Part shown: positions 20,492-63,653 of the stretch, piece after piece | Layout: every line of letters starts with the position of its first letter | How positions within the stretch are numbered: the first letter of the stretch is position 1 | From: an uncultured Verrucomicrobia subdivision 3 bacterium | Lineage (GTDB): Bacteria; Verrucomicrobiota; Verrucomicrobiia; Limisphaerales; UBA11358 | Length of the DNA: 64,000 nt | Direction: 5' to 3' | Assembly: GCA_903944085.1 (NCBI GenBank) | Contig: CAJAQO010000083.1 | Coordinates: forward strand, 6,590 to 70,589 | Program-made: the position numbers and the translations under genes | Notes under the pieces: model-generated | Seen by the model: only the letters and a program-made list of their open reading frames with translations | Database searches by the model: none | Told to the model about the DNA's origin: nothing

Positions 20492-21085
20492 ATGCTGGAT
20501 TTTCTCCACCAGCTATTCAGCCACCTCTGCGGCCAGAATCTGGCGCATACCTGGTCGCTCGGCGGCGAAGCGCTGCCGTGCTGTCAGCGCTGCACCGGCG
20601 TCTATGTCGGCGCATTCGTCGCGGCGCTGCTGCATCTCGTCCGGCGACCGCAACCAACGAGTTTCTGGCGCTGGCTCAACGGCGCGTTTCTGCTGTTCAT
20701 GGTTCCCGCCGGATTTCATTGGTTCCCGCAAGGCCCGGAACTGCGCGCTGCTTCGGGAATTCTTTTTGGCTTCGGCATCGTTGCTTTCCTGTGGCTGCCA
20801 TTGCCGGAGAAATTTACGATTTACGATTTACGATTTACGAGTGCGCGTGACGACCGGCGCGTAAATCGTAAATCGCAAATCATAAATGCCCTGGGCCTTC
20901 TTGCCGCGATCATCGGCACGCCGCTGCTCGGCGCGAGTGAAAATTCCCTCGCCGCCATCGCGCTCACGCTGCTGACCGCCGGCGGCGCGCTCGCGCTCGC
21001 GCTGCTGCTGGTGGCCAATCTTTTTCTCGCGGCCCGCGGATTGTGGCGGTGGTTTTTCCAACCGGCACCGCGCGTGGCTGCATGA
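20492..21085 (+). CDS. DUF2085 family membrane protein
   Basis: N-terminal Cys pattern CGQN...CCQRCTGVY followed by TM helices. Interrupted in frame by repeat element 20813-20887. Confidence 0.6.
   Translation: MLDFLHQLFSHLCGQNLAHTWSLGGEALPCCQRCTGVYVGAFVAALLHLVRRPQPTSFWRWLNGAFLLFMVPAGFHWFPQGPELRAASGILFGFGIVAFLWLPLPEKFTIYDLRFTSARDDRRVNRKSQIINALGLLAAIIGTPLLGASENSLAAIALTLLTAGGALALALLLVANLFLAARGLWRWFFQPAPRVAA
20813..20887. repeat. Heptamer-arm hairpin element (75 nt, in frame in the DUF2085 gene)
   Basis: (TTTACGA)x4, a 21-nt GC-rich spacer, then TAAATCG TAAATCG CAAATCA TAAAT. The arms are inverted complements. Encodes FTIYDLRFTSARDDRRVNRKSQIIN. Confidence 0.9.
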
Positions 21086-22599: not shown

Positions 22600-24765
22600 T
22601 TAAACAATTTCCACCGGACATTTCGGCAGCGCGTCGAGAAACGCCTGGCCGTATTGCTTCGTCAAAATCCGGTTGTCCAAAACCACCACGATGCCCGTGT
22701 CCGTTTTCGTGCGGATCAACCGGCCCACGCCCTGACGAAATTTCAAGATCGCTTCCGGCAAAGAAAATTCGCCAAAGGAATTTCCGCCGCGCGCTTCAAT
22801 CGCCTCGATGCGTGCCTCGATCAGCGGATGATCCGGCACGGCGAACGGCAGGCGGGTGATAATAACATTCGAGAGCGCCTCGCCCGGCACGTCCACGCCT
22901 TGCCAGAAACTGTCCGTGCCGAACAACACCGAGTCCACGTCGTCCTTGAATTTTTCCAGCATCGTCGAACGCGGTGTGCCGGTGCCCTGCACAAACAGCT
23001 CCAGCTTGAGCTTGTCAAAAAACGGCCGCATCCGGTCCGCGACTTCCTGCATCAGCTTGTAGCTAGTGAACAGCACGAACGCCTTGCCGTGCGTCTGTTT
23101 CACGAAATGCTCGATCCAATGTTCCAGCGCCTCCGCATAGCCGTGCTCGCGCGGGTCGGGCATTTTTTTTACGGTGAATAATTTCATCTGCCGCTCGTAG
23201 TCAAACGGCGTGCCGACCTGCAACTGGGTCGCCGCTTCACAGCCGACTCTTTTTGCAAAATAGTTCAGCGGCGAGTTGAAAGTTGAAGGTTGAAGGTTGA
23301 AGGTTTTTTTGCGTGGCGCAGTGGGAGAACTTTCAACCTTCAACTTGGAACCTTCAACTGCTCTGGCCGAAATGGCCAGCGTCGCGCTCGTCATGATGAC
23401 GCTCGTGTCGGTCTCGAACAGGCGGCGGCGCAAAAATTCCGCCACGTCCACCGGCGCGGCATTGAGCGACAGATTCCGCTGCGACTTGCCGCCGCGTTCG
23501 ACCCAGTAAACATGATCCTCCGCCTGCTGGCTCAAAAATTCTGCGACCTCAATTTTCAATTCGCCGAGCCGACGGTTGCATTCGATCAGCTCCTGCCCGA
23601 TGTCCTTGTCATCGCTCGTTTTGACGAGTTCGCTGACGGCTTCGCGCAAGCGCTGGATCGGCAGCGTGACATTGTCTTTAACCAGTTCTGCGCGACGGAT
23701 GCGCAGTTCCTTCCATTCGCGCCGGCGGGCGGAAGAGTTTTCGCCGCCGGAAAATTTCGGTTTTGCCGTCGCCTGAATTTCTTCGCACGCGCTCTCGACG
23801 TTTTCAAAAAACTTGTCCGACTCGCTCAAAATTTCCGCGACAAGCTGCACGGCTTTGCCTTGGCGCAGCGTGGCGAGCAGGCCTTTTTCCGTGCGCGGAT
23901 TCCACAGCCGGTTCAGCGAATAACGCACCTGCCCGCTCGACACGCTCAAGCCGATGTGCCGCGACGCCACGCTCTCCATCGTGTGCGCCTCGTCGAAAAT
24001 CACGAAGTCGTTTTTGAACAGAATGCCGCCTTCCATCTCCTCGTCCACGCCGCCGAGCAGCGTGAAAAACAGCGTGTGGTTCAAAATCACCACGTCCGCC
24101 GACAAAATCCGGTTCCGCACGCGCTGGAAAAAACAGACCTCGTGGTCGCGCGCAAAATCGGACTGGTGCCCGCACGTTTTCGGCGAGCAAAGTCCGCGCT
24201 CGGAACAGACCTGCGCCCAGACTTTCGGATCCGGCTCGATGGAAAAATCCGACAAACTGCCGTCCTTGGTTTCCTTCGACCACTCGTAAATGCGCTGCAA
24301 TTCCTCGGCTTCGGACGACGTGAACAAATTGCCCGATTGTTGCATCGCCTTTTGCAGGCGGCGCGTGCAGAGATAATTGGCGCGGCCCTTCAGCATCGCA
24401 TAGCTGAATTTTACCGGCTCCGGCAGCGCGGCCAAAACGCCCGCCAACATTGGCAAATCTTTTTCCGTGAGCTGCTCCTGCAAATTGATCGTGTGCGTGG
24501 AAACGATGGCTTTTTTCTTCTGCGCCACGGCAAAAAGAATTGCCGGAATCAAATACGCCAGCGATTTGCCGACGCCCGTGCCCGCCTCGACTGCGAGATG
24601 CTCGCGATTCTGCAACGCCCGCGCCACGGCCATGGCCATTTCCTGCTGTTGCGGGCGGAACTCGAAATTTTTTGCGCGCGACAAAATGCCCGTCGGCGAA
24701 AAAATTTGTTCGACCTGCGCAACCAAGTCGGTGCCGCTGGGCTGAATTTCAGACAGCGAAATCAT
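22600..24765 (-). CDS. dinG: ATP-dependent DNA helicase, DinG/Rad3 (XPD-like, Fe-S) family
   Basis: Trimmed to MISLSEIQ... (ATGA overlap with the upstream gene). Motifs AVEAGTGVGKSLAYL, DEAH-type FDEAHTME, a Cys cluster between motifs I and II, and C-terminal VVVLDNR. Confidence 0.85.
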   Translation of the reverse strand: MISLSEIQPSGTDLVAQVEQIFSPTGILSRAKNFEFRPQQQEMAMAVARALQNREHLAVEAGTGVGKSLAYLIPAILFAVAQKKKAIVSTHTINLQEQLTEKDLPMLAGVLAALPEPVKFSYAMLKGRANYLCTRRLQKAMQQSGNLFTSSEAEELQRIYEWSKETKDGSLSDFSIEPDPKVWAQVCSERGLCSPKTCGHQSDFARDHEVCFFQRVRNRILSADVVILNHTLFFTLLGGVDEEMEGGILFKNDFVIFDEAHTMESVASRHIGLSVSSGQVRYSLNRLWNPRTEKGLLATLRQGKAVQLVAEILSESDKFFENVESACEEIQATAKPKFSGGENSSARRREWKELRIRRAELVKDNVTLPIQRLREAVSELVKTSDDKDIGQELIECNRRLGELKIEVAEFLSQQAEDHVYWVERGGKSQRNLSLNAAPVDVAEFLRRRLFETDTSVIMTSATLAISARAVEGSKLKVESSPTAPRKKTFNLQPSTFNSPLNYFAKRVGCEAATQLQVGTPFDYERQMKLFTVKKMPDPREHGYAEALEHWIEHFVKQTHGKAFVLFTSYKLMQEVADRMRPFFDKLKLELFVQGTGTPRSTMLEKFKDDVDSVLFGTDSFWQGVDVPGEALSNVIITRLPFAVPDHPLIEARIEAIEARGGNSFGEFSLPEAILKFRQGVGRLIRTKTDTGIVVVLDNRILTKQYGQAFLDALPKCPVEIV
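23275..23358. repeat. Heptamer-arm hairpin element (84 nt, in frame in dinG)
   Basis: GTTGAAA (GTTGAAG)x3, a 25-nt spacer, then AACTTTC AACCTTC AACTTGG AACCTTC AAC. Encodes VEGSKLKVESSPTAPRKKTFNLQPSTFN on the minus strand. Confidence 0.9.
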
Positions 24766-25670
24766 TTCAATGGCGCGCTGCGCAAAACCACTTTCAGCGC
24801 CGCTGTTTTTCCCGGCGCGAGCGGAATTTTGTTTTGTTTCACATTGCCGGATTCCACGCAAACCATTTTCAAATGTTCATCCGTGCCCCAATCGGCCGGC
24901 ATTTTCTGCGTCGTCCACGGATTCCAGACGACGGTGGATTGCGAATGGAATTTCTCCACCGTGATTTTGCGTTGCAGCTTTGCGTCGTGAATTTCCACGG
25001 TGCCGGCGTTGTCAGGATAGACGCGATTGGTTTCCTGCGCGACGCGCAGCGCCGCCGGGTCGCCACTTCGCCGCGCGCCATTCGCGCCAAACGCAAAATC
25101 ATCGAACGGCGCGTTTTGTAGGCCGGTGAGCGAAACGGCGCTGATATCGCCAACTTTAAAATACGTGTGCAGGCAGTTTTCGATCTCCAGCGTTTCGTCG
25201 CAAGCATCGTTCGTGGCAATCAATTCCATCGTCAAACTGTCGGCGACAGTCACGACAAATTCCGTGCGCAAATTTTTCCAGGTTTCGCGGCCGGGAATTG
25301 GCGGCAGCGCGAAACGCACCGTCGCGTTGCCATCGGGCGAGGCCACCACTTTAATCAGCTCCCACGCGGCGAGCCGCGCGAAACCGTGGCCGACGTCGGT
25401 GCCGCGCGGGCCAAACCACGGGAAACAGATCGGCACGCCGCCGCGAATCGGCTTGCCCGGCGCGAAATCACTTTTCGCGCTCATGAAAATCAGCGGCGGC
25501 TCGCCGTTTTTCTGGAAGTGGGTGAGATGCGCGCCGTGCGGATAAATTTCAGCCGTGCTCCACGGCGTGCGGATTTTCACGAGCTGCAGGCCGCCGTGAC
25601 CGGTGGCGATTTCGACGCGGCCGGCGATTTCGTGCCGGCGCAAATTTTCCAAGGCGATTTTGGTTTCCAT
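24762..25670 (-). CDS. D-hexose-6-phosphate mutarotase (aldose 1-epimerase family, YeaD-like)
   Basis: 302 aa. Motif IRGGVPICFPWFG is typical of glucose-6-phosphate 1-epimerases. Confidence 0.8.
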   Translation of the reverse strand: METKIALENLRRHEIAGRVEIATGHGGLQLVKIRTPWSTAEIYPHGAHLTHFQKNGEPPLIFMSAKSDFAPGKPIRGGVPICFPWFGPRGTDVGHGFARLAAWELIKVVASPDGNATVRFALPPIPGRETWKNLRTEFVVTVADSLTMELIATNDACDETLEIENCLHTYFKVGDISAVSLTGLQNAPFDDFAFGANGARRSGDPAALRVAQETNRVYPDNAGTVEIHDAKLQRKITVEKFHSQSTVVWNPWTTQKMPADWGTDEHLKMVCVESGNVKQNKIPLAPGKTAALKVVLRSAPLK

Positions 25671-27207: not shown

Positions 27208-29865
27208 TCAAGCTTCGCGCGGTGGTTGCGAAAACAAATCCAACTGCGGCGGCGGCGCGAGCGATTTTAATTTTTCCCGATCCTGCTGGCGGCGCGGCTG
27301 GCGCACGTTGCCTTCCGGCGTGAGTTCGGATTCTTCGAGGTTGCCGAGAATTTGTTTAGCGCGCTCCAAGACTTCCTTCGGCACGCCCGCGAGCCGCGCG
27401 ACTTGGATGCCGTAACTCTTGTCCGTGCCGCCCTCGACAATTTTGCGGAGAAAAACAATCTGGTCATGCCACTCGCGCACGGCGACGTTGAAATTTTTGA
27501 TGCGCGGCAATCGCGCGGCCAGCTCCGTCAGCTCGTGATAATGCGTGGCAAACAAAGTTTTCGCGCCGACCTGATTGTGCAGAAATTCCACGATGCTCCA
27601 CGCGAGCGATAGTCCGTCGAACGTGCTCGTGCCGCGGCCGATTTCGTCCAGCACGATGAGGCTGCGGGCGGTAGCGTTGTTCAAAATGTTCGCCGTTTCC
27701 GTCATCTCGACCATGAACGTGGACTGGCCGCGAGACAAATCATCGCTCGCGCCGATGCGCGTGAAAATGCGGTCCACCAGATCAATCCGCGCTTCCACCG
27801 CCGGCACAAAACTGCCGGTGTGTGCGAGCAGCGTGAGCAGCGCCACCTGCCGGATGTAAGTGGATTTGCCGGCCATGTTCGGCCCGGTGATGAGCGCGAT
27901 TTGGGGCATTTCCAATTTCCGATTTTCAATTTCCAATTTGGCCGGCATCACCGAAGAGTTTTCAATTGGCAATTGGCAATTGGCAATTCCCAATCCGGTG
28001 TCATTCGGCACGAAGCGCTCCTCGACGAGCTGCTGTTCCAATACCGGATGCCGGCCGTCGCGGATTTGCAGCACGCCTTCATCGGCAATTTGTGGACGGC
28101 AATAATTATGCAGTCGTGCCGTTTCCGCGAACGACGCGAGCACATCCAATTGCGCCAGCGCAAAAGCGGTTTGCTGGATTTTCGGCAACTGGCCCAGCAC
28201 TTCCTCGCGCACGCGCTGAAAAATTTCGTATTCCAATTTCACGCTGCGTTCTTCCGCGCCGAGAATTTTACCTTCCATCGCTTTCAACTCCGGCGTGATA
28301 AAGCGCTCGCCGTTCGCGACCGTCTGCTTGCGATGATAATGCGGCGGCACCTTGTCCAGATTGGATTTGGTGACTTCGATGTAATAGCCAAAGACGGAAT
28401 TGAACCGGACTTTGAGCGAGGAAATTCCGGTGGCGGCAATTTCGTCGGCCTGCAATTTGGCAATCCAATCCTTGCCGCCGCGCTGGGCGGTGCGCAGTTC
28501 GTCGAGCGCGGTGTCAAAGCCGTCGCGGATCATGCCGCCTTCCTTGATCGGCAACGGCGGTTCGTCCACGATGGCGCGGGAAATGATCTCAACGAGATCG
28601 GGCGATTCGGAAATCTGCGAATCCAATTCTAAAATCAAGCTGGTGGGGCGAGCGTCCTCGCGAGCCGGAGCCTCATCGTGAATTAGATTTTCGGCTCGCG
28701 GGGACGCTCGCCTCACCGTGGCCAAAATTTGTTTCAGCGCTGGAATTTGTTCCAGCGCCAACCGCAGCGCGACAAGGTCACGCGCGTTGCCGCTGCCGGA
28801 ACTCAGGCGGCCCAGCGTGCGCTCCAAATCACGCACCTTCGCAAGCTGCTGGCGAAAGCTGTCGAGACTAAAAGTATTTTCAAGGAACGTCTGCACGGCT
28901 TCCTGCCGGCGGCAGATCGGCTCCACTTTGGCGAGCGGTTGCGACAGCCAGTTGCGCAGGAGTCGCGCGCCCATCGGCGTGACGGTTTTATTGAGCGCGC
29001 CGTAAAGACTGGCATTGCGCGGGGCGTCGTGATGCTGCGGCTCAAGAATTTCCAGATGCCGCAGCGTCGTGTAATCCAGCGTGAGAAAATCGCTGCGCTG
29101 ATAGAATGAAATGCGCGTCAGATGCTTCACGTCGCGGCGCAGATTTTGGGTGAGGTAATGCAGCGCGCCACCCGCCGCGCCGATGGCGGCGGTTTTATCC
29201 TTCAGCCCGAATCCGTCAAGCGAAGCCACCTTGAATTGTTCCTTCACCGTGTAAAACGCGGTTTCGGGCGCGAACGTCCAGTCGTCGTAGCCGCTCAAAA
29301 TTCGGAATGCGCCGCGCAGCAAATCGCGCAGCGAAGTCGCTTCCGTTGGAAAAATAATTTCCGCTGGACGCAAACGTTCCAGTTCGGCGAGCAGCGCGGC
29401 TTCGTTTTCCAATTCGGTCGTCAGAAAATCACCCGTCGTCAAATCCACCAGCGCGAGGCCGAAGATTTTTCCCGACGGATAAACGGATGCCAGAAAATTG
29501 TTCCGCTCGGCGACCAGCATCCGTTCGTCGAAATGCGTGCCGGGCGAAAGGATTTGCGTGACCTCGCGATTCACTAATTTTCCCGGCCGCGCTTCTTCGG
29601 TCTGATCGCAGATGGCCACCTTGCGTCCGCTCTTCAGGATGCGGGCGATGTAGCCATTGGCGGCGTGATGTGGCAGGCCGCACATCGGCACGCCATTGCG
29701 CGCGGTGAGCGAGAGATTGAGCAACTGCGCGCCGGCCTGCGCATCCTCAAAAAACATCTCGTAAAAATCGCCGAGCCGGAAGAGCAGCAGCGCGTCTTTC
29801 GGCAGTTCGCCTTTGATGCGGCGATACTGCGCCATCATGGGCGTGAGTTGGGCTTCGGCGGACAT
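27208..29865 (-). CDS. mutS: DNA mismatch repair protein MutS
   Basis: N-terminal TPMMAQYRRIK...FYEMFFEDA, Walker A ITGPNMAGKSTYIRQ, Walker B LIVLDEIGRGTSTFDG, and C-terminal FATHYHELT. Confidence 0.97.
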   Translation of the reverse strand: MSAEAQLTPMMAQYRRIKGELPKDALLLFRLGDFYEMFFEDAQAGAQLLNLSLTARNGVPMCGLPHHAANGYIARILKSGRKVAICDQTEEARPGKLVNREVTQILSPGTHFDERMLVAERNNFLASVYPSGKIFGLALVDLTTGDFLTTELENEAALLAELERLRPAEIIFPTEATSLRDLLRGAFRILSGYDDWTFAPETAFYTVKEQFKVASLDGFGLKDKTAAIGAAGGALHYLTQNLRRDVKHLTRISFYQRSDFLTLDYTTLRHLEILEPQHHDAPRNASLYGALNKTVTPMGARLLRNWLSQPLAKVEPICRRQEAVQTFLENTFSLDSFRQQLAKVRDLERTLGRLSSGSGNARDLVALRLALEQIPALKQILATVRRASPRAENLIHDEAPAREDARPTSLILELDSQISESPDLVEIISRAIVDEPPLPIKEGGMIRDGFDTALDELRTAQRGGKDWIAKLQADEIAATGISSLKVRFNSVFGYYIEVTKSNLDKVPPHYHRKQTVANGERFITPELKAMEGKILGAEERSVKLEYEIFQRVREEVLGQLPKIQQTAFALAQLDVLASFAETARLHNYCRPQIADEGVLQIRDGRHPVLEQQLVEERFVPNDTGLGIANCQLPIENSSVMPAKLEIENRKLEMPQIALITGPNMAGKSTYIRQVALLTLLAHTGSFVPAVEARIDLVDRIFTRIGASDDLSRGQSTFMVEMTETANILNNATARSLIVLDEIGRGTSTFDGLSLAWSIVEFLHNQVGAKTLFATHYHELTELAARLPRIKNFNVAVREWHDQIVFLRKIVEGGTDKSYGIQVARLAGVPKEVLERAKQILGNLEESELTPEGNVRQPRRQQDREKLKSLAPPPQLDLFSQPPREA
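27908..27997. repeat. Heptamer-array element (90 nt, in frame in mutS, directly before the Walker A codons)
   Basis: ATTTCCA ATTTCCG ATTTTCA ATTTCCA ATTTGGC, about 20 nt, then (CAATTGG)x3 CAATTCC CAATCCG. The arms are only partly complementary, through CCAATT/AATTGG. Confidence 0.88.
28642..28717. repeat. 26-nt imperfect inverted repeat with 24-nt spacer inside mutS
   Basis: GGTGGGGCGAGCGTCCTCGCGAGCCG pairs with CGGCTCGCGGGGACGCTCGCCTCACC (2 mismatches). Encodes part of RRASPRAENLIHDEAPAREDARPT. Confidence 0.88.
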
Positions 29866-29963: not shown

Positions 29964-32646
<2,683 letters not shown>

Positions 32647-32695
32647 GCCGGAAATTTACGGGAAAATCGGCCATCGCCAATCGCCAATCATAAAT

Positions 32696-34740: not shown

Positions 34741-34833
34741 AAGTTTTCAGTTTTTAATGCTCAATTTTTAGTTGAGCGGGACGGCGGCGGGCAATTTGAA
34801 CTAAAAATTAAAAACTAAAAACTAAAAACTGAG
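34741..34833. repeat. Heptamer-arm hairpin element in a divergent promoter region
   Basis: Right arm AACTAAA AATTAAA AACTAAA AACTAAA AACTGAG. The left arm is the inverted complement (AACTAAA AATTGAG CATTAAA AACTGAA when reverse-complemented). GC-rich 25-nt spacer. Confidence 0.85.
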
Positions 34834-34864: not shown

Positions 34865-35392
34865 ATGAAAATGCCCGCCGGACTGGACATCGCACGGCTC
34901 TACGACGAACACGCGCAGCCGCTCTATGCCTTTCTGCTGAACCTCACGCGCGACGAGGCGGACACGCGCGATCTGCTCCAGGAAATTTTCGTCAAGCTTG
35001 CGCGCGCGCCAAAACTGCTCGACGGCGTGCGCGAGGAACGGGCTTTCCTCATCCGGCTCGCGCACAATGCCGCGATTGATTTGATGCGCCGGCGCGGCAC
35101 GCGCGAGCAGATGCGAGAAAACTTCGCCGCTGAAATCATTTCGCCGTTCGCGCCGGCAAGCGACCCGGATGAAATTTTTTTCCGCGAAAACTTAGCGGCG
35201 GCGGTGGGCGAATTGCCGGAAGAACAGCGCGCCGTGGTGCATTTGAAATTGTGGGGCGAATTGACGTTTGAAGAAATCGCCGCCGCGCTGGAGATTCCGC
35301 CGAACACCGCCGCCAGCCGGTATCGCTACGGGCTAGACAAATTGCGCGGGCGGCTGCGTCCACTTTACGAAGAAATGAAGAAGGCAGAATGA
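34865..35392 (+). CDS. ECF-type RNA polymerase sigma-70 family factor
   Basis: 175 aa. Region 2 (LLNLTRDEADTRDLLQEIFVKL) and region 4 (EEQRAVVHLKLWGELTFEEIAAALEIPPNTAASRYRYGLDKLR). Confidence 0.85.
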   Translation: MKMPAGLDIARLYDEHAQPLYAFLLNLTRDEADTRDLLQEIFVKLARAPKLLDGVREERAFLIRLAHNAAIDLMRRRGTREQMRENFAAEIISPFAPASDPDEIFFRENLAAAVGELPEEQRAVVHLKLWGELTFEEIAAALEIPPNTAASRYRYGLDKLRGRLRPLYEEMKKAE

Positions 35393-35832
35393 TGAATGAT
35401 GAAATGGAACAATTCGAGCGCCGCTTGAGCCGCCAGCCGCTGCGGCAAGTCCCCGGTGATTGGCGCGCGGAAATCCTGGCGGCAACTCGCGGCGCGCAAC
35501 CGGTGCCTCGCGCCGCGCGCCGCGCGCCTCACGCCTGGCTCTCAACCATCAGCCATCAATTCTCAGCGTTGCTCTGGCCGCATCCGAAAGCGTGGGCAGG
35601 TCTGGCTGCGGTTTGGGTTTTGATTTTTGTCATGAATTTTTCCATGCGCGATGCGTGGCCGAGGCTGGCGGCGAAATCCGCGCCGCCGTCGGCAGAGGTG
35701 ATCGTGGAATTAAAAATGCAGCAGCGGCTGTTTGCGGAACTGGTTGGCACCTACGAAGCGCCGGACGCCGACCGGCGGAAAATCTTCTCACCCAAACCGC
35801 GCAGCGACCGGGCGGAAATTTTGCTGACGTAG
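35389..35832 (+). CDS. Putative anti-sigma factor (single-pass membrane protein)
   Basis: ATGA overlap with the sigma-factor stop. 147 aa with one central TM helix. Assigned by position only. Confidence 0.5.
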   Translation: MMNDEMEQFERRLSRQPLRQVPGDWRAEILAATRGAQPVPRAARRAPHAWLSTISHQFSALLWPHPKAWAGLAAVWVLIFVMNFSMRDAWPRLAAKSAPPSAEVIVELKMQQRLFAELVGTYEAPDADRRKIFSPKPRSDRAEILLT

Positions 35833-37635: not shown

Positions 37636-37715
37636 TGAAGGATGAATGAAGAAGTTTTCGCGGGAGCAGTTTGCCGGTTTCCCGTTTCTTCATTCATCAT
37701 TCTGTCTTCATCATT
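37623..37715. repeat. Heptamer-arm hairpin element overlapping the stop codon of the 591-aa gene
   Basis: Left arm GAAGGCAGAATGATGAAGGATGAATGAAGAAG. A spacer of about 32 nt contains its own CGGGA/TCCCG stem. Right arm TCTTCATTCATCATTCTGTCTTCATCATT. The first 17 nt are identical to 35380-35396. Confidence 0.88.
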
Positions 37716-39186: not shown

Positions 39187-39332
39187 GACAGTGTCCTAAT
39201 CCTAATCCTAATCCTAATCGTCATCGTAATCGTCATCGTAATCGTAATCGTAATCGTAATCGTCATCGTAATCTTAATCCGCTTCAAACCACGATTACGA
39301 TTAAGAACAAGATTAAGATCAGGACAGCACCA
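39187..39332. repeat. Hexamer-array hairpin element, MITE-like (146 nt) between convergent genes
   Basis: 14 tandem hexamers (CCTAAT x4, then CGTAAT/CGTCAT/CTTAAT), a 14-nt spacer, and 5 inverted units (GATTAC GATTAA GAACAA GATTAA GATCAG). Terminal TGTCCTRATC inverted repeats. Flanked by identical AACCAGCA at 39179-39186 and 39333-39340. Confidence 0.85.
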
Positions 39333-44422: not shown

Positions 44423-44496
44423 TGTCCGATGGTGTAATGGTAACACAGCGCCCTTTGGAGGCGTTATTCATGGTTCGAATCCATGTCGGACAGCCA
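44423..44496 (+). tRNA. tRNA-Gln (anticodon UUG), CCA encoded
   Basis: Hand-folded cloverleaf. Acceptor TGTCCGA/TCGGACA (U1-A72), anticodon stem GCGCC/GGCGT with loop CTTTGGA, T-arm CATGG-TTCGAAT-CCATG, discriminator G, then CCA. Confidence 0.88.
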
Positions 44497-59436: not shown

Positions 59437-59848
59437 AAATAATTTTGCGTTCCGTCTCGCCGACAATTTCAATCTTCACATTTTTCAAATCCGCAATCTG
59501 TAATCCGCAATCCGCAATCCGCTCCGCCCATTCCATCACGGCCGCGCCGTCGGGGTTAAAAAATTCCTCGATGCCCGCGCTCAAAATCTGCTCCGCTGTT
59601 TCCAGCCGGTATAAATCCAGATGAAACAGTGTCAGCCGTCCGCCGCCGTATTCGTTCACCAGCGTGAACGTCGGCGAATGCACGCGGCCGGAAATTCCCA
59701 GCCCGCGCGCCAGCCCGCGCACGAACTGCGTCTTGCCCGCGCCGAGATCGCCGCTCAAGGCGATGACCCAGCCGGACGAGGCCGCGCGGCCAAACTTTTC
59801 ACCGAGCGCTTCCGTTTCCGCCGGACTATGCGAAATGAACGTAGCCAT
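59417..59848 (-). CDS. tsaE: tRNA t6A37 biosynthesis ATPase TsaE
   Basis: P-loop LSGDLGAGKTQFVRGLARGLG, plus SPTFTLVNEY and HLDLYRL. Confidence 0.85.
   Translation of the reverse strand: MATFISHSPAETEALGEKFGRAASSGWVIALSGDLGAGKTQFVRGLARGLGISGRVHSPTFTLVNEYGGGRLTLFHLDLYRLETAEQILSAGIEEFFNPDGAAVMEWAERIADCGLQIADLKNVKIEIVGETERKIIYDDFGA
59487..59521. repeat. Tandem heptamer array (AATCCGC AATCTGT AATCCGC x3) inside tsaE
   Basis: Read directly. Encodes RIADCGLQIADL near the TsaE C-terminus. No obvious inverted partner arm. Confidence 0.88.

Positions 59849-61553: not shown

Positions 61554-63653
<2,100 letters not shown>

What the first reader, a model, noticed from the sequence alone, without database searches (positions are those of the whole stretch)
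27908..27997. 90-nt heptamer-array insertion in mutS immediately upstream of the Walker A (P-loop) codons
The MutS ATPase domain reads ...ERFVPNDTGLGIANCQLPIENSSVMPAKLEIENRKLEMPQIALITGPNMAGKST. In the E. coli MutS sequence as I recall it, only about 9 residues separate the FIANP-type block from ITGPNMGGKST. Here there are about 34, and the extra 25-30 residues are encoded exactly by the tandem heptamers.

An insertion next to the nucleotide-binding loop of the mismatch sensor could alter or switch repair capacity. Tandem 7-mers are also slippage-prone, and any non-multiple-of-3 change would knock out mutS. That is the logic of a contingency (mutator) switch.
Basis: partly seen in the sequence, partly recalled or inferred. 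Interest (0 to 1): 0.68.

Follow-up and report, generated by a model that had tools for sequence, protein, structure and literature searches.

The report
Translated heptamer hairpin inside mutS
A small hairpin-forming repeat made of 7-base units sits in frame in a tolerant loop of the DNA mismatch-repair gene mutS of a soil verrucomicrobium; it is mainly a tolerated passenger, but losing one 7-base unit switches the gene off, and that has happened in a sister species.

Summary
mutS (27208-29865, minus strand) carries 32 codons (27904-27999) between ERFVPND and QIALITGPNMAGKS. E. coli MutS, outgroups and some congeners have about 7 there.

The DNA is two inverted arrays of about 4 heptamers around a 23-nt centre. 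It belongs to a genus-wide family of heptamer hairpins: 46 period-7 arrays in 293 kb, in intergenic DNA and in frame in other genes.

The site is an insertion hot spot. 194 close MutS proteins (3-8% divergent among the 120 closest) hold at least 17 unrelated hairpin inserts or none, all in frame, with no conserved peptide. The insert is therefore a translated, REP-like passenger in a permissive loop, not an adapted protein feature.

The mutator-switch reading is partly supported:
- Intact alleles differ only by 21 nt (3 units).
- A database protein from a sister species (P0132) is reproduced exactly by deleting one AAATCCG unit. This splits mutS before the Walker A motif.
- Against a true contingency locus, the window's arrays are short and imperfect.
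- Eleven near-identical proteins of the same species show no length change.
- Broken alleles are no commoner at heptamer inserts than at other allele types.

Verdict: a new variant of known kinds (intragenic REP/RPE elements; repeat-mediated mismatch-repair switching).

The parts
27208..29865 (-). mutS coding sequence (885 aa; MutS domains I-V)
   Evidence: ORF list and translation. Pfam MutS_I-V. E. coli MutS structures match at E = 1e-182.
27904..27999 (-). 32 codons (TGLGIANCQLPIENSSVMPAKLEIENRKLEMP) between ERFVPND and QIALITGPN. This is the occupied insertion site; empty alleles have 7 codons here.
27963..27994 (-). 5' arm on the mutS sense strand: (AATTGCC)x3.7 perfect plus a degenerate unit; encodes IANCQLPIE
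   Evidence: TRF CAATTGG x3.7, 100%; inverted repeat I1/I2.
27940..27962 (-). 23-nt non-repetitive centre of the element (hairpin loop region)
27908..27939 (-). 3' arm on the sense strand: AAATTGG AAATTGA AAATCGG AAATTGG AAAT (imperfect, 84%); encodes KLEIENRKLEM
   Evidence: TRF ATTTCCA x4.6.
27859..27885 (-). Walker A / P-loop codons GPNMAGKST (residues 661-669), 19 nt downstream of the insert in the sense direction
   Evidence: Translation; invariant columns.
28642..28717 (-). Second in-frame hairpin element in mutS (26-nt arms, 92% complementary; residues ~384-409, domain III). It has no counterpart in E. coli MutS.
   Evidence: I8; RNA fold z = -7.1; alignment gap against E. coli; alternative hairpin types in relatives.
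23275..23358 (-). Family member: (GTTGAAG)4 / (CTTCAAC)4 hairpin in frame in a DinG-like helicase; a 27-aa insert compared with an orthologue
20812..20887 (+). Family member: (ATTTACG)4 / (CGTAAAT)4 hairpin in frame in a DUF2085 membrane-protein gene
32613..32689 (.). Family member: intergenic heptamer hairpin between ppx/gppA and an epimerase gene. Orthologous sites in sister species carry heptamer hairpins with other units.
34742..34830 (.). Family member: intergenic (AGTTTTT)/(AACTAAA) hairpin between dciA and an ECF sigma gene. The unit is conserved at the orthologous site of L167 and L163.
59488..59522 (-). Single heptamer array (AATCCGC x5) in frame in tsaE; encodes RIADCGLQIADL
62424..62989 (+). 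Two single in-frame heptamer arrays, (AAAGCGG)x4.4 at 62424-62454 and (CAATCGG)x4.6 at 62958-62989, in a DUF255/thioredoxin-domain gene

Best explanation
**What it is.** The 90-nt segment is a partly decayed copy of a small REP-like hairpin element. Its two arms are inverted arrays of about four heptamers around a ~23-nt centre. Such elements are abundant in this soil/peat genus of Verrucomicrobiia.

**Where it sits.** It lies in frame in a permissive loop of MutS domain V, the turn between the strand ERFVPND and the strand leading into the Walker A loop. It is translated as an unconstrained 25-residue extension (shown).

**How the site behaves.** The loop is an insertion hot spot. In congeneric species the same codon position holds unrelated hairpin elements (GTAG-type REP pairs, 8-mer-array hairpins and others), hybrids of them, or nothing (shown). 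This implies repeated insertion into or next to the resident hairpin, followed by deletion (inferred). Selection keeps only in-frame, stop-free outcomes (shown: all alleles recovered at DNA level are in frame).

**Side effect.** The heptamer arms slip. Changes of three units survive. Changes of one unit truncate MutS before the P-loop, which should give a mismatch-repair-deficient mutator that is revertible in principle. The truncation is shown once, in a sister species. The mutator phenotype and its reversibility are inferred.
For: - **Anatomy and position:**
- **Family:** 46 period-7 arrays of at least 3 copies in 293 kb of genus DNA, against at most 7 for any other period. About 15 form adjacent array pairs; two of those pairs have unlike, non-complementary units.
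- **Other members in the window:** in frame in DinG, DUF2085, tsaE and a DUF255 gene, and in intergenic sites.
- **Hot spot:** 194 close MutS proteins with invariant flanks hold at least 17 unrelated insert clusters of 16-61 aa, or a 7-aa linker (36 proteins).
- **Turnover:** mutS DNA of nine alleles is 85-89% identical, with about 70% identity at 4-fold sites. The inserts are unalignable, so they turn over faster than neutral drift.
- **Hairpins:** nine other alleles fold better than all 200 shuffles (z -2.7 to -11.5).
- **Hybrids:** L162/P0099, P0286, and a relic heptamer tail 3' of the REP pair in L168/L162.
- **Outgroups:** relatives at 73% identity or less have no insert, apart from L093, an independent gain.
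- **Translation:** all 8 occupied alleles recovered by tblastn are in frame and stop-free.
- **Slippage:** -21-nt alleles and the -7-nt OFF allele P0132.
Against: - The window's own copy is not a thermodynamically special hairpin (z -0.2 as RNA, -0.4 as DNA). Calling it a hairpin element rests on its inverted symmetry and on better-preserved homologous alleles (L163, L164, L169).
- No mobilising enzyme (RAYT or other transposase) was found among the 54 ORFs scanned in the window. Mobility is therefore inferred only from distribution.
- Units differ between most copies. This fits in-situ evolution as well as copy-and-paste.
- The surface-loop claim could not be confirmed by modelling: both AlphaFold runs gave pLDDT below 50 for residues 604-672.
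- Only one one-unit OFF allele was seen, and its DNA could not be read directly (the sample has no file).
Confidence: 0.7

Rival explanations
1. Evolved contingency (mutator) switch. The heptamer tract is kept in mutS by second-order selection because reversible one-unit slippage turns mismatch repair off and on in the population. This is the logic of neuO, or of the 6-bp repeats of mutL.
For: - The frame logic holds.
- A natural one-unit OFF allele exists in a sister species, against at least 9 ON contigs.
- Intact alleles differ by exactly 3 units. This could reflect passage through OFF states.
- Published precedents exist: neuO heptanucleotide repeats (PMC13001214) and tandem repeats in mismatch-repair genes as mutability switches (PMC2955026).
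Against: - The tract has only 3.7 perfect and 4.6 imperfect units, whereas neuO has 3-53 repeats with 65.6% of genomes OFF (PMC13001214).
- There are 0 length variants among 11 near-identical proteins (11-16 contigs on record), and no truncated ORF of this species.
- My tally, with denominators: OFF-like ORFs are about as common at other allele types. That is about 1 of 53 heptamer alleles, about 5 of 115 other hairpins, and 2 of 38 empty alleles.
- Most congeners carry non-tandem hairpins or nothing at the site.
- The same arrays occur in intergenic DNA and in housekeeping genes, where a switch makes no sense.
Confidence: 0.14
2. Nucleic-acid-level function. A hairpin at this position of the mutS mRNA or DNA is itself selected (mRNA processing or stability, a translational pause between domains IV and V, or a protein-binding site), and its sequence is free to vary.
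For: - Every occupant of the site is a hairpin (z -2.7 to -11.5).
- The variable trinucleotide of the heptamers covaries between arms in WIN, L163, L164 and L169.
- A second hairpin sits in the same gene.
Against: - 36 of 194 close proteins, and all outgroups except L093, lack any insert.
- The window's copy folds no better than shuffles.
- Alleles with one arm collapsed persist.
- There is no Rfam match.
- Hairpin shape is equally explained if the inserting elements are hairpins by nature.
Confidence: 0.1
3. Protein-level adaptation. The extra loop next to the P-loop tunes ATP binding, dimerisation or partner contacts of MutS.
For: Proximity to Walker A. Length is clustered at 25-33 aa: 127 of 158 occupied alleles.
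Against: - No residue of the insert is conserved. At least 17 unrelated peptide types of 16-61 aa occur, as do empty alleles.
- Peptides are simply the three reading frames of the DNA repeat units.
- Polymorphisms within the species fall in the insert (E/A, M/I).
Confidence: 0.04

Closest known systems
Intragenic REP elements (GTAG/CGTC-tagged palindromes), as catalogued by Di Nocera et al. 2013 (PMC3733652), and Rickettsia palindromic elements (RPE)
   Same: - Short palindromic repeats inserted in frame in genes that remain functional.
- They encode 20-30 extra residues, sometimes twice in one gene.
- They are most numerous in a verrucomicrobium (Opitutus terrae) and in Rickettsia.
- They are frequent in replication and repair genes.
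- Several sister alleles at this very site begin with GTAG and end with CTAC (L162, L165, L168).
   Different: - The window's element has no GTAG/CGTC tag, and its arms are tandem heptamers rather than a unique palindrome.
- No RAYT gene was seen in the window.
- The excerpts read did not mention replacement of one element type by another at a single codon position across congeners.
Short tandemly repeated heptamers of cyanobacteria (STRR; heptamer repeats that host small dispersed repeats), and TAACTGA repeats of Beggiatoaceae (PMC4679880)
   Same: Genome-wide excess of period-7 arrays of a few copies, with several unit sequences per genome and no known function or mechanism. STRR and Elhai 2008 are cited from my own knowledge.
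   Different: - A different phylum.
- Here the arrays are usually paired as inverted arms of a hairpin with about 4 copies per arm, and many lie in frame inside genes.
- TAACTGA repeats are mostly direct, lie upstream of start codons, and contain stop codons.
Repeat-mediated switching of mismatch-repair genes (mutL 6-bp repeats in Salmonella/E. coli, PMC2955026), and the phase-variable heptanucleotide tract of neuO (PMC13001214)
   Same: Slipped-strand change of a tandem repeat inside the gene converts functional and defective alleles. For a 7-nt unit, only multiples of three units are ON. One OFF allele was found here.
   Different: - The mutL repeat is native coding sequence and changes in frame.
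- neuO tracts are long and highly polymorphic.
- Here the tract is part of an inserted hairpin element, is short, and shows no variation within the window's species.
Mobile-element switches in mismatch-repair genes (SpyCIM1 at mutL in S. pyogenes; an element in mutS of Vibrio splendidus), as reviewed in PMC8875331
   Same: A mobile element resident in a mismatch-repair gene couples its own dynamics to the host's mutation rate.
   Different: Those are kilobase-size integrative elements that excise by recombinases. This one is a 90-nt translated repeat.

Membership tests
Simple-sequence-repeat contingency locus | Tandem repeat tract inside the reading frame, with a unit length that is not a multiple of 3 | tested here: met
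   Two period-7 arrays inside mutS. Changes of 7 or 14 nt give stops at codons 630-726.
Simple-sequence-repeat contingency locus | Tract long and pure enough for high-frequency slippage | tested here: inconclusive
   The tract has 3.7 perfect units and 4.6 units at 84%. For comparison, neuO has 3-53 units, most commonly 20. No rate can be computed here.
Simple-sequence-repeat contingency locus | Unit-number polymorphism, including OFF alleles, among closely related strains | tested here: not met
   - Window's species: 11 proteins at least 99.5% identical all have the same length, and no truncated ORF was found.
- Sister species: 1 OFF (P0132) against at least 9 ON contigs.
- So the feature is not met for this locus, and is met once for a homologous allele.
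Simple-sequence-repeat contingency locus | Measured reversible ON/OFF switching with a phenotype | not testable with these tools
   Needs cultures or read-level data.
REP / REPIN (RAYT-mobilised) | Short imperfect palindrome present in many dispersed copies | tested here: inconclusive
   The architecture is multi-copy, and some units recur at non-orthologous sites: ATTTACG, TTCTTCA, AACTAAA. No second copy of the AATTGCC/GGAAATT element is in the window.
REP / REPIN (RAYT-mobilised) | Conserved GTAG (or CGTC) tetranucleotide at the element's end | tested here: not met
   The window element starts GGATTGGGAATTGCC and ends GGAAATGCCC. GTAG...CTAC is present in sister alleles L162, L165 and L168.
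REP / REPIN (RAYT-mobilised) | Cognate RAYT (Y1 HUH transposase) gene in the genome | not testable with these tools
   None among the 54 window ORFs scanned against Pfam. The rest of the genome is not available.
In-frame palindromic insertions (RPE-like) | Insertion within a conserved gene that keeps the frame, is absent from orthologues, and lies in a variable or surface region | tested here: met
   It is in frame and absent from outgroups and from 36 close relatives. The site is a loop of variable length in MutS alignments. Surface exposure itself was not confirmed.
Canonical bacterial MutS | Domains I-V with intact Walker A and the rest of the ATPase domain | tested here: met
   Pfam MutS_I-V; alignment to E. 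coli MutS over residues 8-849; GPNMAGKST intact.

The most novel reading that the evidence does not exclude
Three linked claims:
- This verrucomicrobial genus harbours an undescribed class of hairpin cassettes that home to existing hairpins in permissive coding loops and replace one another. That would explain at least 17 occupant types at one mutS codon.
- Their tandem-heptamer arms (always about 4 x 7 nt, with arms co-varying) are produced by a dedicated mechanism rather than by ordinary slippage.
- In mutS (and perhaps dinG) the heptamer-armed version works as a reversible, population-level mutator switch.
Probability: 0.15. Interest if true: 0.8.

Novelty: new variant of a known kind. Interest (0 to 1): 0.55.

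Why it matters
- **A permissive site beside the P-loop.** A universally conserved repair enzyme tolerates, one strand before its P-loop, almost any 16-61-residue peptide. This marks a useful permissive site in MutS.
- **A natural turnover experiment.** Sister species carry unrelated cassettes at one codon position. This is a clean record of how small hairpin repeats insert, replace each other and decay inside genes. The phenomenon is known for Rickettsia RPEs and Opitutus REPs, but the excerpts I read did not describe hot-spot turnover of this kind.
- **A link to mutator alleles.** One-unit slippage of such a passenger has produced a mutS-null allele in an environmental population. This links selfish repeats to the supply of mutator alleles, possibly revertible ones, in uncultured soil bacteria.
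- **An open question made testable.** The unexplained regularity of the arrays (period 7, about 4 copies, co-varying arms) parallels the long-unexplained heptamer repeats of cyanobacteria and Beggiatoaceae, and offers a second system in which to study them.

Tried and rejected
- **AlphaFold2, twice.** The first run used a shallow alignment of 37 sequences at 89% identity or more (mean pLDDT 42). The second used 83 sequences down to 58% identity (mean pLDDT 63.8). Residues 604-672 stayed below 50 in the second run (582-885 in the first), so the surface-loop question was not settled. No fold search was attempted on these models.
- **Scans of genome contigs and metagenome contigs with MutS.** They returned only about 12 close loci. 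The DNA of close alleles had to be fetched one by one.
- **DNA of the OFF allele.** It could not be fetched because the sample has no file. The 7-nt deletion was inferred from gene coordinates and an exact protein simulation.
- **Chance or artefact.** Rejected.
- **Strong hairpin in the window's copy.** Rejected (z -0.2 and -0.4).
- **Known RNA family.** None in mutS; the only Rfam hit in the window is a tRNA.
- **Transposase or RAYT in the window.** None found.
- **In-situ origin of the right arm.** I considered that it arose by amplifying the flanking codons CAAATCGC. The resemblance is 6 of 7 bases but out of phase, so this stays a speculation.
- **Literature.** One search was wasted on the term 'STRR' and one call failed on term length. 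Elhai 2008 on cyanobacterial small dispersed repeats is not in the library and is cited from memory only.
- **Search filter.** The partial-query protein search returned only proteins of 746 aa or less, which looks like a length filter. This happened to make it a useful screen for truncated mutS ORFs.
Full report
**1. The observation.** Window 27908-27997 lies inside a minus-strand ORF, 27208-29865 (885 aa). This ORF is a canonical MutS: Pfam domains I-V and E = 1e-182 to E. coli MutS structures.
- Tandem Repeats Finder reports ATTTCCA x4.6 at 27908-27939 (84% matches) and CAATTGG x3.7 at 27963-27988 (100%).
- The two arrays are inverted relative to each other: 28-nt arms, 79% complementary, 32 nt apart.
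- On the sense strand the segment reads (AATTGCC)n - 23 nt - (AAATTGG)n.
- The phmmer alignment to E. coli MutS splits exactly here, at query 625/655 against E. coli 603/608.

**2. The organism and the gene's relatives.**
- The closest named genome record is a 'Verrucomicrobiia bacterium' MAG, 93% identical over the N-terminal 400 residues (L019). The named close proteins are labelled Verrucomicrobiae or Verrucomicrobiota.
- The 120 closest MutS proteins are 89-100% identical overall. Outside two short regions they differ by only 0-8%.
- At the finding's position their flanks are nearly invariant, but the segment between them is different in almost every lineage.
- Over 194 full-length close proteins the segment is 7 aa in 36 ('empty', for example TVFNHEL) and 16-61 aa in 158, with the mode at 32 aa. 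The occupied segments fall into at least 17 clusters with no mutual similarity.
- More distant relatives (73% identity or less) have the short linker, like E. coli. The one exception is an unrelated lineage (L093) with its own independent insert.

**3. What the inserts are at DNA level.** I fetched the DNA of a dozen alleles.
- The flanks are alignable base for base (gaacgcttcgtgccgaaygac...caaatcgc).
- The inserts are, in turn:
  - heptamer-array hairpins homologous to the window's (L163, L164, L169);
  - 8-mer-array hairpins (L167, L081);
  - GTAG...CTAC palindrome pairs (L165, L168);
  - a 183-nt compound palindrome (L166, -126 kcal/mol);
  - other near-perfect palindromes (L082-L084);
  - nothing (L161, L086).
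- Nine of the inserts fold better than all 200 dinucleotide shuffles, with z from -2.7 to -11.5.
- The window's own copy does not (z -0.2 as RNA, -0.4 as DNA). It is a decayed member.
- Hybrids exist:
  - L162 has a GTAG-REP pair with (AAATCGG)x4 in its loop.
  - P0286 joins a REP left half to a heptamer right arm.
  - L168 and L162 keep a relic 'GAAATAAAATTTCCC/GCC' of the heptamer arm 3' of the REP pair.
- The nine mutS alleles are 85-89% identical in DNA and about 70% identical at four-fold sites. They therefore come from congeneric species. A neutral insert inherited from their ancestor should still align.
- It does not align, so the occupants are replaced faster than neutral drift. The hybrids suggest new elements insert into or beside the resident hairpin and the old one is then deleted. 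This step is inferred.

**4. The insert is translated and the peptide does not matter.**
- All eight occupied alleles recovered by tblastn, which does not require an intact ORF, are in frame and stop-free.
- By my estimate an unconstrained 75-96-nt insert would be in frame and stop-free only about 8% of the time.
- No insert residue is conserved. The peptides are simply the three frames of the repeat units: IANCQLP / KLEIENR; IADCRLP / KSEIGNR; IADCGLR / KSEIRNP.
- Within the window's species, two polymorphic residues (E/A and M/I) fall in the insert.
- This argues against a tuned protein function and for a permissive loop.
- From general knowledge of the ABC-type ATPase fold, this is the turn between the second strand and the strand that ends in the P-loop. 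That is my inference.
- Two AlphaFold runs failed to model residues 604-672 with confidence.

**5. It is one of a genome-wide family.**
- In 293 kb of DNA from this genus there are 46 period-7 arrays with at least 3 copies. No other period has more than 7.
- Most arrays have 3.6-5.0 copies (26-35 nt). About 15 form adjacent array pairs, mostly inverted around a 20-30-nt centre.
- In the window, in-frame members lie in:
  - a DinG-like helicase (23275-23358), where an orthologue lacks the 27 aa and another has a different 14 aa;
  - a DUF2085 gene (20812-20887);
  - tsaE (59488-59522);
  - a DUF255 gene (62424-62454 and 62958-62989).
- Intergenic members lie at 32613-32689, 34742-34830 and 37640-37715.
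- At orthologous intergenic sites, sister species carry heptamer hairpins with the same unit (dciA|sigma; the site upstream of the beta-CASP gene) or with different units. Between ppx and the epimerase gene these are GATGGCG, ATTTACG or AGAATGA.
- mutS itself has a second in-frame hairpin at 28642-28717 (z -7.1), also replaced by other types in some relatives.
- No transposase was found in the window.
- The nearest published description is of intragenic REPs. They are most numerous in the verrucomicrobium Opitutus terrae and in Rickettsia, often lie in repair genes, and encode 20-30 residues (PMC3733652).

**6. The mutator-switch idea.**

The logic is sound. In either array a change of 7 or 14 nt gives a stop at codons 630-726 and removes the P-loop. 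A change of 21 nt keeps the frame.

Slippage does happen over evolutionary time:
- Among 30 distinct heptamer-type alleles, 22 are 32 aa long, one is 31 aa, and 7 are 25 aa.
- Two of the short alleles, read at DNA level, have one arm reduced from about 4 units to about 1 (L171, L172).

A search with MutS residues 200-625 returned only truncated or partial ORFs. One of them is P0132 (652 aa, ENA and NCBI), which ends ...KSEIRNPKFPRSL*.
- Its contig has the same gene coordinates as the intact sister-species contig L169 up to mutS.
- mutS is split into 652-aa and 216-aa ORFs.
- Every downstream gene is shifted by exactly 7 nt.
- Deleting one AAATCCG from L169's (AAATCCG)x4 reproduces P0132 at 652 of 652 residues.
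- This is a natural one-unit slippage knock-out of mutS, set against at least 9 intact contigs of the same species.

Against a dedicated contingency locus:
- The window's tract is short and imperfect.
- Its species shows no length variant among 11 near-identical proteins (11-16 contigs on record), and no truncated ORF.
- Frameshifted ORFs are also seen at non-heptamer inserts (P0123, P0140, P0141, P0156, P0157) and at empty alleles (P0147, P0152). Their proportions are similar or higher, and some may be sequencing errors.
- The same arrays occur where a switch is meaningless.
- By comparison, neuO tracts range from 3 to 53 units, with 65.6% of genomes OFF (PMC13001214).
- Repeat-mediated switching of mismatch-repair genes is already a published concept (PMC2955026).

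**7. Verdict.**
- The finding is real, and more interesting in its context than in itself.
- It is best read as a translated, REP-like heptamer hairpin lodged in a hot-spot loop of MutS. The hairpin is one of many in this genus.
- As a by-product it makes mutS liable to frameshift by slippage.
- I put about 0.7 on this reading and about 0.14 on a selected mutator switch. The remainder goes to nucleic-acid-level or protein-level function.
- Novelty: a new variant of known kinds.

Unexplained points:
- why the period is 7 and the copy number about 4;
- the regular G.A mismatch per unit while the variable trinucleotide covaries between arms;
- how so many element types reach the same codon.

Noticed in passing
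window 28642-28717 (mutS residues ~384-409): A second in-frame hairpin insert in the same mutS gene: 26-nt arms, 92% complementary, RNA fold z = -7.1. It has no counterpart in E. coli MutS. Most of the genus shares it, but some relatives have other hairpin types there.
   Followed up: partly
window 23275-23358, in the DinG-like helicase gene 22603-24861 (-): A heptamer hairpin, (GTTGAAG)4/(CTTCAAC)4, translated as a 27-aa insert. The L165 orthologue has nothing there and L162 has a different 14-aa insert. This is a second variable insertion site in a repair-type gene.
   Followed up: partly
window 20812-20887, in the DUF2085 gene 20492-21085 (+): An (ATTTACG)4...(CGTAAAT)4 hairpin in frame. 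The third right-arm unit is CGCAAAT, and this change removes what would be an in-frame TAA. It looks like repair of the frame after insertion.
   Followed up: no
window 59488-59522 (tsaE); 62424-62454 and 62958-62989 (DUF255/thioredoxin-domain gene): Single in-frame heptamer arrays without an inverted partner. They encode [23 protein letters not shown] and [11 protein letters not shown], the same peptide motifs as the mutS alleles of sister species.
   Followed up: no
window 32613-32689, 34742-34830, 37640-37715; L162-L168 orthologous sites: Intergenic heptamer hairpins sit tightly between a stop and the next start codon. At orthologous sites the unit is conserved in some cases and different in others (GATGGCG, ATTTACG or AGAATGA between ppx and the epimerase gene).
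   Followed up: partly
window 39197-39324: A hexamer array, TAATCG x13.8, followed by a short inverted GATTAA array, between convergent genes (beta-CASP RNase-like and T2SS protein F). It is the only long non-heptamer array in the window.
   Followed up: no
window 35389-35832 (ORF after the ECF sigma gene); L163 6772-6792, L167 4190-4254, L168 2817-2877: This putative anti-sigma ORF carries arrays at 35387-35403 and 35486-35536. Its orthologues carry two unlike heptamer arrays side by side (for example AGAGTTG next to TGATGCG), which are not complementary.
   Followed up: no
L093 (metagenome contig LNFM01039352.1), MutS at 59% identity: A different lineage has its own 33-aa insert in the same MutS loop, encoded by repetitive GC-rich DNA (-38.6 kcal/mol). 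This suggests the loop is broadly permissive.
   Followed up: no
proteins P0123, P0140, P0141, P0147, P0152, P0156, P0157, P0162, P0192, P0205: A background of frameshifted mutS ORFs in this clade. They lie inside other insert types, in empty alleles, and upstream of the site. They are either real mutator pseudogenes or indel errors of long-read assemblies.
   Followed up: partly
L165 3447-4860; protein P0154: amtB next to mutS in L165 is split into five ORFs, which points to an error-prone assembly or a pseudogene. P0154 ends in the peptide EIGRAHV, the translation of an Illumina adapter at a contig end.
   Followed up: no
window 44423-44493: One tRNA gene, the only Rfam match in the window. 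The rest is ordinary housekeeping: glycosyltransferases, exosortase, amtB-glnB, RNase E/G, rodA-PBP2-mreCB, tsaB/E and thiL.
   Followed up: no
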